A DNA stretch of 64,000 bases from Octopus sinensis (lineage: Eukaryota). The position numbers were made by a program, and so were the translations under genes. This document shows, in pieces, positions 6,876 through 48,521 of this stretch (its first letter is position 1; each line of letters starts with the position of its first letter). Location: the NCBI RefSeq assembly GCF_006345805.1, contig NC_043017.1, positions 9,114,001 through 9,178,000 of the forward strand, written 5' to 3'. The notes under the pieces are model-generated. The model ran no database searches and was not told where the DNA came from. It saw only the letters and a program-made list of their open reading frames with translations.

Positions 6876-7355
6876 TGGGAGAGAGAGAGAGAGAGAGAGA
6901 TGGGAGAGAGAGAGAGAGAGATGGAGAAATAAAGGGAAGAAAAACAGAAAACAGAGATTAAGAAAGTAAGCTAGAGAAGAAAGGAGAGCGAGAGATAGTG
7001 ACAGAGTGCAGTCTAGACAATAATACAGCATTTTAGCTTCATAATTATATATAATTAGTTGCTAATGAGAGAGTGTGGGGGAGAGAAAGTGACCAGCTAA
7101 TACAAGTTAGCTTAAGCCAACCAATTTTCTTAAACACCACAGTGGACATAGGTCAGTCAGACCAAGAGAGATCAGACTATTTATTCCTTTCCGGAAGATC
7201 CTCACTAACACTTTTGAACTACATGGTCTCTGGTTCAGTCCCACTGTGTGGCACTTTGGACAAATGTCTTCTTGTGTAGCACCAAGCTGACCAAAGCCTT
7301 GAGAATTTGGTAGACGAAAAGTGAAAGAAGCCCATCGTATATATGCATCTGTGTA

Positions 7356-7410
<55 letters not shown>

Positions 7411-8213
7411 GTGTATACACACACATGTGTGTGTGTGAGCATGTGTATGTAAGTGTGTACGTTTGTCTTCCATTGTCTCGACATTGCGTGACTTGTAAAT
7501 CAAAGCCATTCATTCCCAATGTTCTGCAAAAACCATGTCTGGCCAGGGGTGAGGTGGGGGGGATATTCCCTTATTTGGAAAAAGGTGATGGCTGGTGACA
7601 GGGAGGGCATCTGATCAAAGAAAATCTGCCTAAACAAATTCCATCCGACCCATGCAGGCATGGAAAAACAGATGTTAATGTGATGAAACTGTGATTGCTG
7701 TACCTCAGTAGGGTCATGACAGCTTGTTTGCCATCTAACAAACACACACACACCATTAATTACTCATTCAGCTTATAATTGTTTTCCTGAGCTCTACAGC
7801 ATTAGAGATGGTCAGGTCAGGCTTGGGGCTCATGATTGACAAGATCAATATAAATCTGATTGTTGTGAGGGGCAAAAGATCTTTAGTTTTAGGTTTATTG
7901 CCCTTCATCCCTTTTTGCCATGAGGAAGCAGTCTTCAAGAGATCTAAAGAAAAAAAAATGCACAAGAAAAAAATGAAAACTGGTGGTGGTTAATGTTGAA
8001 TTAAATTACTCAGTGAAGGTCATTAGTTTGGAGAGGTTTGCCCTTCATCCTTTTGGGGCCAATGAAGAAAGTACCAGTTTAGCACTTGGGTTGGTGTAAC
8101 CAACCAGGTCCCTCACCCAAAATTTTGGGTCTTGTGCCTATAGTAGAGAATTATTATTATCATCATCATCATTATTATTATATAATTATTATTATTATTA
8201 TTATTATTATATA

Positions 8214-38160: not shown

Positions 38161-38314
38161 TGGGACTTAGCTGGAGTTTTCTATTGCTTTTCCTTATTAA
38201 AATATTGCGTAATGAAATCGGCTCATTCGTTTTGAATAACACTGTATACACACACACATATACATACATACATACAAAGATACATACACACATCACACAT
38301 ATATAATATATATG

Positions 38315-38866
38315 TTAATATTTATCGCCAAACTAATATGGCAGTCCATAAATATAAGACTAAAGCTGTCGCTGATTAGCTCCAAGAGGCCATCGCCTCT
38401 TGCTAGCTATATGACACACGAACCTGCGTCCATTACAACCTTCGAACAGGGGAGGTCAGCCGCTTCACCTTGCTGGTCAGACATCTGCAGACATGTTTCA
38501 GGGTTGTTGCCCTTTATCAATGCAGCGTAGTCAGACCCAGCAGGTGTCGCTACAGACCGTCTGTTCGAAGATTTTATTTAACTAGTTACAGTGGAATACA
38601 TAAATAAAATCTTCGAACAGACGGTCTGTAGCGACACCTGCTGGGTCTGACTACGCTGCATTGATAAAGGGCAACAACCCTGAAACATGTCTGCAGATGT
38701 CTGACCAGCAAGGTGAAGCGGCTGACCTCCCCTGTTCGAAGGTTGTAATGGACGCAGGTTCGTGTGTCATATAGCTAGCTAGAGGCGATGGCCTCTTGGA
38801 GCTAATCAGCGACAGCTTTAGTCTTATATTTATGGACTGCCATATTAGTTTGGCGATAAATATTAA
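38315..38866. repeat. Near-perfect fold-back palindrome: two 266-bp arms and a 20-bp spacer
   Basis: 38315-38580 is the reverse complement of 38601-38866 with one mismatch seen. The spacer is ACTAGTTACAGTGGAATACA. Confidence 0.97.
38656..38696 (+). ncRNA. Minimal type I hammerhead ribozyme, U3-A8 variant (mirror copy 38485-38525 on minus)
   Basis: CTGCA-TTGATAA-AGGG-CAACAA-CCCT-GAA-ACATGT-C-TGCAG: 5-bp stem I, 4-bp stem II, palindromic stem III, GUC cleavage site after 38691. Confidence 0.7.
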
Positions 38867-38990
38867 TATCCAGTAACGCTGTCGTAATCTCCTTTAGAGA
38901 GACTTAGTAATTTTAATATTTCTATATATATATATGTGTATGTATGTATGTATGTATGTATGTATGTATGTATGTATGTATGTATGTATG

Positions 38991-43594: not shown

Positions 43595-43808
43595 AGACCG
43601 AAGTGGAGAAGGGTTCCGTGCCAACGGCGGTCGAGCACGGGTCCGTCGGTCCTAAGAGGCGGGCGAAAGCTTCCACGAAAGGCGCCGGATTCGCGAGCAA
43701 TCGAGCGAATAAGCAAGCGGCCGGCCTCGCATCGAAAGGGAATCGGGTTAATATTCCCGAACCCGAACTCGGAGAGTGCCCGCCCGGCGGCGGGAACGCG
43801 GCGTGCTC
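43595..43808 (+). pseudogene. 28S rRNA fragment (D7a/D7b region), orphan copy
   Basis: Conserved LSU blocks GACCGAAGTGGAGAAGGGTTCC, GTCGGTCCTAAG and CGAAAGGGAATCGGGTTAATATTCCCGAAC in the correct order. It is a GC-rich island in AT-rich DNA. Confidence 0.9.
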
Positions 43809-44073: not shown

Positions 44074-45946
44074 TCAAAGTGCTGTTACAGCCATCTCTTT
44101 CAATCTACAATTTCAAAATATGTTGGCAGGTCAGCTTATTCGAAATATAGTAATAATACGCTAAAATTACAATAAACTGTCACAGTTATAACCGTCTCTC
44201 CTATAAAAGTCTCAAACCTTCTGGAATGCAGCTCGTACAATAGCATCCGAATTGTGACCTGAGAATATTATTTACAACGTCGATACATCACACACGTGAT
44301 GGACTTCTTTTAAAGACACACAGCTCCAGAATTAGACTGAGAATGGTTTCGGTATGTTTGATCCATTGCATCTGAGTTGTGCTGAGCAGCGTTTGGGACT
44401 TCTTGCCGGTTTCAGCATTTTAAGTTTTCTCTCCTTCGAATTCAAGTTTTGGATCCATAAACGGAACATTCTGGAAAATTTCAGCTTCAGATGGGAGACA
44501 TTTTCAAGCCGGAGGACGTACTGGGAGAGAACCTTCAAACTGGGAGTATTGTGGCCAAACCGGAGCATATAGTAAGCCTACGTATTCATTCCTATTTTTA
44601 ACAAAATGGGTGGCATAAGCATCAGAGATGCTTTACTTGACGCAGATAACGTAAGAGCTGCTCAAAGATATTGCACACTTTTCGCCAGTTGTTGACGAAA
44701 GCCGCCGCCAGGTTCGTTGTTAGTGATTTCAGGTCCTTGCACTATCTGGTGGCTGGTCTACTAACTAAAATTGTTCAACGATACTAAGATACAATGTTTT
44801 CGGCGGGAAAGGGTTCTTTACGCAGACAGATTTTGATTTTAATTTTTTAAGATTTAGGTCTACGTGCCTTAAAGCCTTAAAAAAAAAGAAAAACTCAGAA
44901 GATGGCCAATAAACAAAGACTGAAGTTTGTTTTGAGAAGGGGAAATAATATCTTATGCGGATGGCCTTAACCGAAAACACAATAAACTTTGAAATACCAC
45001 ATTGTTCTTTCAAGAAAGCACATGAAAGCATTTGAAGAAGAACATAGAAACAGCTAGAGAAATACTAAATATTTTTAACAAAGATTTACGTCATTCAACC
45101 AGCTAACAAGGCTTCCGGGTTTAGAGTTAAATCAATGATGAGATGGCCTGAGGCTGAAAACATTGAAATCTTGCCACGGAGATCAGATTCTAAACGAGAA
45201 ATGTATAGGGGCTCTTGAAGAAAAGATTTCATCAGCTAAAAGCCCAAATCCTTCCATATCTTCCAGGATTCCAAGCATTCGCCTATTCAGTACTCGCTTG
45301 AGTGGTCGCGAGAACTGAATTAGCCTTCGTCTGCAGAAGGGCTCTATCTACAGTCTTTGTCAACCACAGACACTTTGAGCTGGTTTTAGAGGCAACAGCT
45401 ATTTCCTTGGTGTCTTTCTTCACTAATATCTAGGGAATACATTTTGATTAGGATAAGTATAAGTTTCTTCAATCTAGACAAAACAGCGATGTCTAGAAGG
45501 GTTATTTTAATTAATTCTTTCGCAGCCTTTTTTCCCCCCAATTCTCTCAAACAATCCAGAAATCCACAATAGCACATTCTCACTGATACCTCGACACAAT
45601 CTTACTCAACTCTCACACACTTTTAAATAATGTTCACGTTAGACATTTTAACATCATCCTACTCACACGTTTCTGGTTTGTTTTCAGATAAATGGAAGCT
45701 ACATTGTTAAACAAATTATATCTGGCACACAGTTTCTCTATTTTTCACTGAACTTTATAGATTCTGTCAAGAAATAGTAAACCTTTTTAGTTTTTCGCTA
45801 TTTACTTTCATTCGATGGACACGAACGAGCAATGAGTTATGACTCAGAAGGGAAAATAATATTTCCGGCTTGTCTTGTTTTTATTTTCCATCATTTGATA
45901 CGCGAACAATTATTCATAAAAACCGTTTGCTCTAGAAACTGCATCT

Positions 45947-46025
<79 letters not shown>

Positions 46026-46716
46026 CACACACACACACATGCACGCAATACACGTACACGTACACACAAGCACATATCGATTGAAAGATTGAAAGCGTTT
46101 ACTGTTTTCACAAGAAGGACAAATGGCGGCCGGCATAGTTTCTAGACTCGGCCATTTCCAGCAATGTTTGATGGACGGTCGTTACTAAAGCAACTAATCA
46201 TAGTGGCATAGCGGTGTCGAGAGATTGTTTCGGAGGTGGCAGAATAAAAAGAAAAAGATAAAACATTTCTTCGAAGGTTACAAAGTAACAACAGAGCATA
46301 GATTTATTATCATCGTCGTTTTATAAGTCTGATGTGTAGAGAATTAAAGTGTTAAATAACTAACTGACGTGGTTGGCAGTGATCTATATGAATGTCTTTC
46401 TTCTGTCGTCTGCTTCAATGAATCAACTTCTAGTTACGAAGACAGATACGAATGTAACAATGATAGGGTCATAGATAATTGGATTTCTGACAGAGGATTC
46501 AGTGAAATTAGTAACAGTTAAAAGAGCGGAAAACCGATTTAGCGGATTAGGAATGGGAATAGACGCTAATCTTGTGAAGGTAGGAGAAAAGGAGGAAAAC
46601 GGAAGAACGAACACGTTCAGTCTATGCAGCGTGCTTTTAAGTAAATACTCTCGATATTTCGTTTTGGGATTTGGTTTGCAAGATTCTTTATGTGAGTTCG
46701 TGTGTTGAAGCATATT

Positions 46717-47067
46717 CTGTTGTGTCTGGGGAGAGTCATTTTCTTTTTGTGCCTTACAATGTAACACACTCAGCGGTAAAATGTCCACTTATTTTTTTTT
46801 TCCTAAAATTTTCGTTGCGTCTTGCAACCTTTTCAATAGTCTTGAGAGAGTCAAGACTATTGAAAAGGTTGCATATTTTTATTTTCCTAAAATTTTCGTT
46901 GCGTCTTGCAACCTTTTCAATAGTCTTGACTCTCTCAAGATTATTGAAAAGGTTGCAAGACGCAACGAAAATTTTCGGAAAATGAAAATAAATAAGTGGA
47001 CATTTTACCGGTGAGTGTGTTACATTATAAAGCACAAAAAGAAAATGACTCTCCCCAGACACAACAG
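46717..47067. repeat. Fold-back palindromic element with internal 84-bp duplication, carrying three U3-A8 hammerhead motifs
   Basis: Ends CTGTTGTGTCTGGGGAGAGTCATTTTC and GAAAATGACTCTCCCCAGACACAACAG. Motifs at 46803-46839(-), 46887-46923(-) and 46941-46977(+). Confidence 0.9.
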
Positions 47068-47114
47068 ACTCTCAATATTAGTTTCTGGTTTACACTGAAC
47101 AGACAGGGATTGAC

Positions 47115-47865
<751 letters not shown>

Positions 47866-47881
47866 CGTATATCAATATCTA

Positions 47882-48296
47882 TTGGCGAACCGCTAAGTTA
47901 TTTTATCGATTTCGTTTGGGGATCCGCTAGGGTTATTTTATCGATCTCGTTTGGCGAACCGCTAAGTTATTCTATCGATTTCCTTTGACGAAAAGCTAAG
48001 TTATTTTATTGATCTCCTTTGGCGAACCGCTAGATTATTCTATCGAACCCTTTTGGCGAACCTCTAAATTACTTTATCGATCTTCTTTGGCGAACTGCTT
48101 AATTATTTTATTGATCTCCTTTGGCGAACCGCTAGGTTATTTTATCGATCTCATTTGGCGAAACGCTAAGTTATTTTATCGATAACCATTGGCGAACCGC
48201 TAAGATATTTTAATGAACACGTTTGGCGAGCCGCTAGGTTATTCTATCAAATCCGTTTGGCGAACCGCTAAGTTATTTTATCGATCTCCTTAGGCG
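47882..48296 (+). repeat. 35-bp minisatellite, about 12 diverged units, derived from SINE A body
   Basis: Unit TTGGCGAACCGCTAAGTTATTTTATCGATCTCCTT resembles the SINE A segment TATTCTATCGGTCTCTTTTGCCGAACCGCTAAGTTA. Confidence 0.85.
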
Positions 48297-48479
48297 ACAA
48301 CGGATGTTGGTGTGTTTACGTCCCCGTATCTTAGCGGTTCGGCAAATTAGACCTATAGTATAAGCACTAGGCTTATAAATAACAAGTCGTGAAGCTTATT
48401 TGTTCGACCGAAAGGCGGTGCTGTAGCATGGCCGCAGTCAAATGACTGAAACAAATAAAAGAGTAAAAGAACAGAGAGG

Positions 48480-48521
<42 letters not shown>

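What the first reader, a model, noticed from the sequence alone, without database searches (positions are those of the whole stretch)
46717..47067. Second, unrelated palindromic element with tandem U3-A8 hammerheads 84 nt apart
Seen: a 351-bp fold-back with an internal duplication. The minus strand carries two identical motifs CTA-TTGAAAA-G-GTTGC-aagac-GCAAC-GAA-AATT-T-TAG (46803-46839 and 46887-46923). A third copy on plus (46941-46977) has a damaged stem I. The central hairpin loop appears in both orientations (GAGAG versus CTCTC). It shares no primary sequence with the 38.3 kb palindrome but has the same architecture and the same core swap. Inference: two same-strand copies are the arrangement needed for a dimeric hammerhead via the AATT palindrome and would release an ~84-nt unit, as in retrozyme-type replication. 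Weak points: stem I is only 3 bp and the triplet is UUU.
Basis: partly seen in the sequence, partly recalled or inferred. Interest (0 to 1): 0.72.

Follow-up and report, generated by a model that had tools for sequence, protein, structure and literature searches.

The report
Penelope retrotransposon stub with rearranged centre
This palindrome is one short, back-to-back end fragment of an abundant Penelope-type jumping gene that carries a known kind of minimal hammerhead motif, and its 84-base repeat is found only at this spot and is likely a one-off copying accident rather than a self-replicating RNA unit.

Summary
The palindrome, the three motifs and the flipped loop are as described. The element is larger than reported: a 58-63-nt tail extends it leftwards, and a 12-bp target duplication flanks it. 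It is one of at least 1,406 copies. Longer copies continue upstream into a GIY-YIG endonuclease and RT-like ORF, and the tail runs into the start of that ORF. It is therefore a Penelope-like element (PLE) stub: two head-to-head pLTR arms plus tail. U3-A8 minimal hammerheads and this layout are published (PMC4209133, PMC3846280, PMC11167929). The retrozyme reading is not supported. The 84-nt junction occurs once in the genome, same-strand tandems in other copies are rare and differ in spacing, and the double-hammerhead fold is predicted 34-94 kcal/mol above the hairpin. Arm 5' ends pile up just upstream of the hammerhead, not at its cut site. The scan noted this kind of stub before, in this and other genomes. 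Self-cleavage is untested.

The parts
46647..46658 (.). Left copy of the 12-bp target-site duplication; its last 5 nt also match the element's tail end (microhomology)
   Evidence: contig loose ends stack at 46654
46659..46716 (-). One-sided PLE tail (between inferred RT start sites A and B)
46653..46739 (-). First 29 codons of the PLE ORF (ATG at 46739-46737); continues into the full ORF in partial-tandem copies
46717..46845 (-). Tailed pLTR arm (sense on minus strand)
46803..46839 (-). Minimal type I hammerhead motif (U3-A8), family-majority sequence; predicted cut between 46806 and 46805
46846..46929 (.). Extra 84-nt central segment (inverted triplication of the fold-back point); junction at 46873/46874 unique in the genome
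46887..46923 (-). Second minus-strand hammerhead motif, inside the extra segment
46930..47067 (+). Inverted pLTR arm (sense on plus strand) ending at the fixed site A
46941..46977 (+). Third hammerhead motif, stem I damaged by two private substitutions
47068..47079 (.). Right copy of the 12-bp target-site duplication

Best explanation
This is a 409-bp, 5'-truncated insertion of an endonuclease-bearing Penelope-like retrotransposon, made of two head-to-head copies of its terminal repeat plus a one-sided tail and a 12-bp target duplication, whose centre was likely triplicated by a one-off template switch. Shown: family membership, the link to the coding element, the two fixed 3' ends, the target duplications and the uniqueness of the 84-nt junction. 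Inferred mechanism: the element's protein makes a staggered cut in AT-rich DNA; each nicked strand primes reverse transcription inside the start of the ORF, one at site A (about +23) and one at site B (about +83), on RNA from the same source; both cDNAs run back through the uncut hammerhead and mostly stop about 10 nt upstream of it (likely the transcript start or a short palindrome there); they are joined head to head. The hammerhead is the element's ordinary pLTR min-HHR. In the active element it probably works weakly, in trans or with protein help; at this locus it is predicted to be locked in duplex and inactive.
For: 1,406 exact hits of a 33-nt tail motif, 0 for the reversed control. 23 of 30 best endonuclease loci have this unit downstream on the same strand, 9 ending at site A and 14 at site B. 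GIY-YIG above the Pfam cut-off; Atlas neighbours carry HTH_animal, GIY-YIG and RVT_1. In 16 of 30 loci found with the ORF's N-terminal DNA the tail runs into the ORF. Inverted arms end at unit 140-158 in 50 of 58 cases. Non-repeat target duplications of 7 nt or more in 25 of 48 copies against 4.9 in shuffled pairings. Both arms carry the same subfamily letter at 152 of 166 site comparisons against 60% shuffled. Arm 5' ends: 47 of 64 at risk stop at unit 0-16. The 84-nt junction occurs once. Layout and two-site initiation are published.
Against: Pfam gave no RT hit on any of the six RT-region ORF pieces scanned; RT identity rests on motifs read by eye and Atlas neighbours. All long copies seen are broken; no intact ORF was found. 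24 of 82 tail-anchored copies have no detectable inverted arm. Arm concordance could also come from gene conversion or snap-back copying. The triplication could not be confirmed in independent contigs, so a local assembly error is not excluded. Even in an ordinary single-arm copy the hammerhead fold is disfavoured (stem II probability 0.03).
Confidence: 0.9

Rival explanations
1. Nascent retrozyme: the two same-strand motifs form a cis double hammerhead and release an 84-nt RNA that circularises and is copied.
For: Two intact same-strand motifs with a palindromic helix III. Min-HHRs show low activity as dimers (PMC4209133). A preprint argues that animal retrozymes derive from PLE pLTRs (abstract and part 1 read). 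Other copies also have same-strand pairs (46, 51, 86, 155 nt).
Against: Junction unique at up to 2 mismatches. Spacings are not shared between copies. Forced double-hammerhead costs +33.6 kcal/mol in 46795-46930 and +93.9 in the whole palindrome. Described animal retrozymes have 150-450-bp units with canonical hammerheads (PMC7229834 passages).
Confidence: 0.03
2. Same PLE origin, but the palindrome arises by snap-back self-priming of one cDNA (as proposed in PMC3846280), with later deletions at the centre, not by priming on both nicked strands.
For: Arms share subfamily letters; a short inverted repeat lies at unit 3-12, where 5' ends pile up; centres are often rearranged.
Against: The two arms end at two different fixed sites, either arm can be the long one, and in 3 copies (L068, L074, L093) the arms do not overlap at all. 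PAc cuts and extends both strands in vitro (PMC11167929).
Confidence: 0.25
3. A DNA-transposon MITE or foldback element with terminal inverted repeats, the hammerhead being a chance look-alike.
For: Long, near-perfect inverted repeat with a fixed end.
Against: One-sided tail, variable-length target duplications, independent 5' truncation of each arm and continuity with an RT/GIY-YIG ORF.
Confidence: 0.01
4. The PLE stub is real but the 84-nt extra segment is an assembly error at a palindrome.
For: The two minus-strand motifs are identical; no public contig shown spans the centre.
Against: Similar centre rearrangements with other breakpoints exist in other copies; flanking contigs match the window exactly on both sides.
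Confidence: 0.1

Closest known systems
C-terminal-endonuclease Penelope-like elements with inverted pLTR and tail (PMC3846280 and PMC8557442, passages read)
   Same: Head-to-head pLTRs, one-sided tail, short target duplication, pLTR and tail hold the first ORF codons, partial tandems, RT then GIY-YIG, CX4CxxC linker (Neptune/Nematis type), TA-repeat targets, N-rich ORF insert.
   Different: Tail about 60 nt instead of 30-40; this copy has an inverted triplication at the centre; clade not fixed by a tree.
Metazoan PLE minimal hammerheads, U3-A8 variant (PMC4209133, parts 1-2 of 4 read; supplements not opened)
   Same: U3-A8 core, unpaired nucleotide 5' of stem II, G10.1-C11.1, palindromic helix III, pairs on opposite strands 100-700 bp apart.
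   Different: Stem I 3 bp (4-5 in Schistosoma, 2 in D. virilis), stem II 5 bp, triplet UUU; activity untested here.
PAc, Poseidon of Anolis (PMC11167929, parts 1-2 of 4 read)
   Same: Two internal RT start sites inside the ORF start that bound the tail; ATT-type target ends; uncut RNA as template.
   Different: Here the ORF starts about 70 nt downstream of the hammerhead, not inside it; the core is U3-A8; the evidence is genomic only.
Animal non-LTR retrozymes (PMC7229834, passages; bioRxiv 10.64898/2026.07.22.740005, part 1 of 5)
   Same: Two same-strand type I hammerheads at this one locus.
   Different: No amplified unit, 84 nt against 150-450, minimal rather than canonical motif, unit contains the motif's own antisense, family has a coding master.

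Membership tests
EN+ Penelope-like element | GIY-YIG endonuclease C-terminal to RT in one ORF | tested here: met
   PF01541 above cut-off; RT-like motifs upstream read by eye; Atlas clusters with RVT_1 in 14-23% of members; no Pfam RT hit
EN+ Penelope-like element | pLTRs from partial tandems, direct or inverted | tested here: met
   23 of 30 EN loci have the unit downstream; 16 of 30 N-terminal loci have it upstream
EN+ Penelope-like element | One-sided tail equal to the ORF start | tested here: met
EN+ Penelope-like element | Variable target-site duplication in AT-rich DNA | tested here: met
   25 of 48 against 4.9 shuffled; 12 bp at this locus
Neptune/Nematis clades | CX2-5CxxC linker between RT and EN | tested here: met
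   CX4CxxC seen in translations; definition
Neptune/Nematis clades | Placement in the RT phylogeny | not tested
   no reference set fetched
PLE minimal hammerhead | Core, extra nucleotide, G10.1-C11.1, palindromic helix III | tested here: met
PLE minimal hammerhead | Core conserved above flanks; covariation | tested here: inconclusive
   core 44 of 1,885 non-majority letters, stems 116 of 2,740, downstream 921 of 15,760, CpG sites left out; copies are not independent; no formal pair count; stems differ across four families in the window
PLE minimal hammerhead | Self-cleavage as a dimer | not testable with these tools
   needs an assay; no excess of arm 5' ends at the predicted cut
Non-LTR retrozyme | Amplified head-to-tail unit with a hammerhead in each repeat | tested here: not met
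   junction once in the genome; 2 of 82 copies with pairs, other spacings
Non-LTR retrozyme | Abundant linear and circular monomer RNA | not testable with these tools
   only standard RNA-seq of another organism label could be laid
MITE / foldback DNA transposon | Symmetric ends with fixed-length target duplication | tested here: not met
   one-sided tail, variable duplication lengths

The most novel reading that the evidence does not exclude
The thousands of stubs are an in-vivo record of the Penelope insertion reaction: both strands of one staggered cut prime on RNA of one source at two different sites inside the ORF start, copying runs through an uncut hammerhead to a transcript start about 10 nt upstream of it, and junction accidents now and then put two hammerheads in tandem, the raw material from which retrozymes could arise. 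This would carry the in-vitro PAc model over to a Neptune/Nematis-type element and argue that the hammerhead does not set the template's end.
Probability: 0.5. Interest if true: 0.35.

Novelty: new member of a known kind. Interest (0 to 1): 0.17.

Why it matters
The locus itself is an ordinary, probably inert retrotransposon stub. Its use is as one data point in a large family whose copy ends let parts of the poorly understood Penelope insertion cycle be read from the genome (two fixed priming sites, shared template, no trace of hammerhead cutting). It also shows that same-strand hammerhead pairs inside palindromes should not be read as retrozymes without a copy count.

Tried and rejected
Rfam scan: no hammerhead family among the 150 of 339 rows shown, only hairpin-like miRNA look-alikes below their cut-offs. 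A 4-kb pair of tail hits taken for a full-length element was an assembly duplicate beside a gap (L060). Hammerhead-cut footprint: I suspected a pile-up of arm 5' ends at the cut; 3 of 84 ends at risk fall at unit 41-47, and genome-wide 42 arms have another letter before the cut against 1,599 with the family letter, of which 12 of 30 inspected were truncations, about 1% per base and within the 0.4-1.3% of neighbouring stretches; rejected. Sequencing runs: no RNA holder listed. Raw RNA reads of another organism label (745, 684 and 214 reads, about 6% of each run) lie on both strands, 86-93% run on into unlike sequence, and show no stack of ends at the cut or an 84-nt joint; these come from other copies and do not test this locus. 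PDB sequence search gave nothing useful. No tRNA gene called at 45500-48500. A paper search for octopus + Penelope + hammerhead listed 4 papers; none describes this family in the listing (only PMC8557442 was read, in passages), which does not show that it is absent from repeat libraries, which I could not search. The 2017 paper on dimer-cleaving PLE hammerheads was seen only as a cited title. Splice-like signals in the arm were seen but not supported by any RNA joint.

Full report
Observation. The 351-bp fold-back, the two identical minus-strand motifs 84 nt apart, the damaged plus-strand copy and the flipped central loop are all in the sequence at the stated places. The genome is a 2.7-Gb animal assembly; earlier notes of this scan call it an octopus, which I did not check.

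It is a repeat family, and larger than the palindrome. A DNA search gave 2,307 candidates, 40 scored. Most of the fetched copies are about 270-285-bp palindromes with one centre. 23 of 24 other places share a further 55-74 nt on one side only. A 33-nt motif from this tail occurs 1,406 times exactly, the reversed control 0 times. At this locus the tail runs to about 46654-46659, and a 12-bp duplication flanks the whole (46647-46658, 47068-47079). Public contigs show loose ends stacked at 46654 and 46712-46714, and thousands of contigs of five organism labels align.

Anatomy across copies. I numbered the sense unit from the centre (hammerhead at 11-47, site A at about 141-144, site B at about 200). 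In 82 copies picked by the tail alone (82 of the first 100 places listed), 58 had an inverted arm call, 50 of them ending at 140-158; each arm is truncated independently at the centre. Non-repeat duplications of 7 nt or more flank 25 of 48 two-armed copies (2 of 50 skipped) against a mean of 4.9 in shuffled pairings. Both arms carry the same letter at 152 of 166 subfamily-site comparisons in 51 copies, against 60% shuffled.

It is the end of a Penelope-like element. Copies with longer arms continue through a microsatellite-rich 3' region into a GIY-YIG domain. 23 of the 30 best endonuclease loci have the unit downstream on the same strand, 9 ending at site A and 14 at site B. Upstream lie RT-like motifs and a CX4CxxC linker, which marks Neptune/Nematis-type PLEs (PMC8557442). 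Pfam found no RT family; Atlas neighbours carry HTH_animal, GIY-YIG and RVT_1. In 16 of 30 loci found with N-terminal ORF DNA, the unit and tail run into the ORF; the window keeps its first 29 codons. Head-to-head pLTRs, a one-sided tail holding the first codons and short target duplications are the published PLE layout (PMC3846280, PMC8557442), and two internal RT starts bounding the tail, with cutting and extension of both strands, were shown in vitro for PAc (PMC11167929).

The hammerhead. U3-A8, the extra nucleotide before stem II, G10.1-C11.1, a palindromic helix III and opposite-strand pairs are all described for PLE min-HHRs, with low dimer activity (PMC4209133). In 251 arm pieces the core has 2.3% non-majority letters, stems 4.2%, downstream flank 5.8%, upstream 7.3% (CpG sites excluded; rank test p = 0.002). 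This is modest: copies are related, and the C11.1-G12 CpG decays at 15-21%. The window holds four unrelated motif families with different stems and the same layout, and shuffles give none. Activity is untested. Arm 5' ends stop at unit 0-16 in 47 of 64 at risk (4.3% per base) but only 3 of 84 at 41-47; a genome-wide count at the cut gives about 1% per base, like neighbouring stretches. The templates were therefore mostly uncut, as in PAc (inference).

The 84-nt repeat. On the minus strand the order is antisense arm, sense 1-58, antisense 27-1, sense to the tail, with the loop flipped: an inverted triplication, not a head-to-tail unit (the template-switch origin is inferred). Its junction occurs once in the genome at up to 2 mismatches. 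Same-strand pairs occur in 2 of 82 tail-picked copies (46 and 51 nt) and in a few other loci (86, 155, 352, 363 nt) (motif allowed 5 substitutions, no gaps). Forcing the double hammerhead costs 33.6 kcal/mol in the isolated 136 nt and 93.9 in the whole palindrome; both motifs have near-zero stem probability in full context (tertiary contacts and folding during transcription are not modelled). Described animal retrozymes are amplified 150-450-bp repeats with canonical hammerheads (PMC7229834). An assembly error at the centre is not excluded.

Verdict. A new but ordinary member of a known class: a PLE stub with the family's minimal hammerhead and a private rearrangement. The scan has reported such stubs before. 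Supplements of the cited papers were not opened and repeat libraries could not be searched, so the family may already be catalogued. Interest 0.17.

Noticed in passing
window 38312-38935: The 38.3-kb palindrome is a second, younger multi-copy family (2,860 candidates, 93-99% identity) with the same two-fixed-ends-plus-tail pattern and a better-formed U3-A8 motif (5-bp stem I); its coding master was not traced.
   Followed up: partly
window 2991 (+) and 24598 (+): Two more minimal hammerhead motifs of unrelated sequence, one C3-G8 and one U3-A8.
   Followed up: no
L014:1036-1763: Four head-to-tail copies of one arm at 155-nt spacing, each ending exactly at site A: the most retrozyme-like array seen in this family.
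   Followed up: no
window 47011-47067 (+): Splice-donor-like and acceptor-like words in the arm, the second acceptor coinciding with site A; the ORF's ATG lies between them; no RNA joint seen.
   Followed up: partly
L150, L151, L160, L161 (ORF 5' part): Asparagine/threonine-rich insert in the ORF, like the N-rich inserts described for rotifer Penelopes.
   Followed up: no
L100:3622-3936 and 7276-7608: A longer copy sits between exons that look like a dynein heavy chain gene (recalled likeness, not searched).
   Followed up: no
L104 / L030: A copy lies at the junction of a long inverted repeat of a different GIY-YIG-coding element.
   Followed up: no
window 47107-47260 and 47870-48330: A SINE-like repeat starts 40 nt right of the insertion; a 34-bp minisatellite lies inside another repeat copy further on.
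   Followed up: no
window 43611-43780: Fragment matching eukaryotic LSU rRNA above the Rfam cut-off.
   Followed up: no
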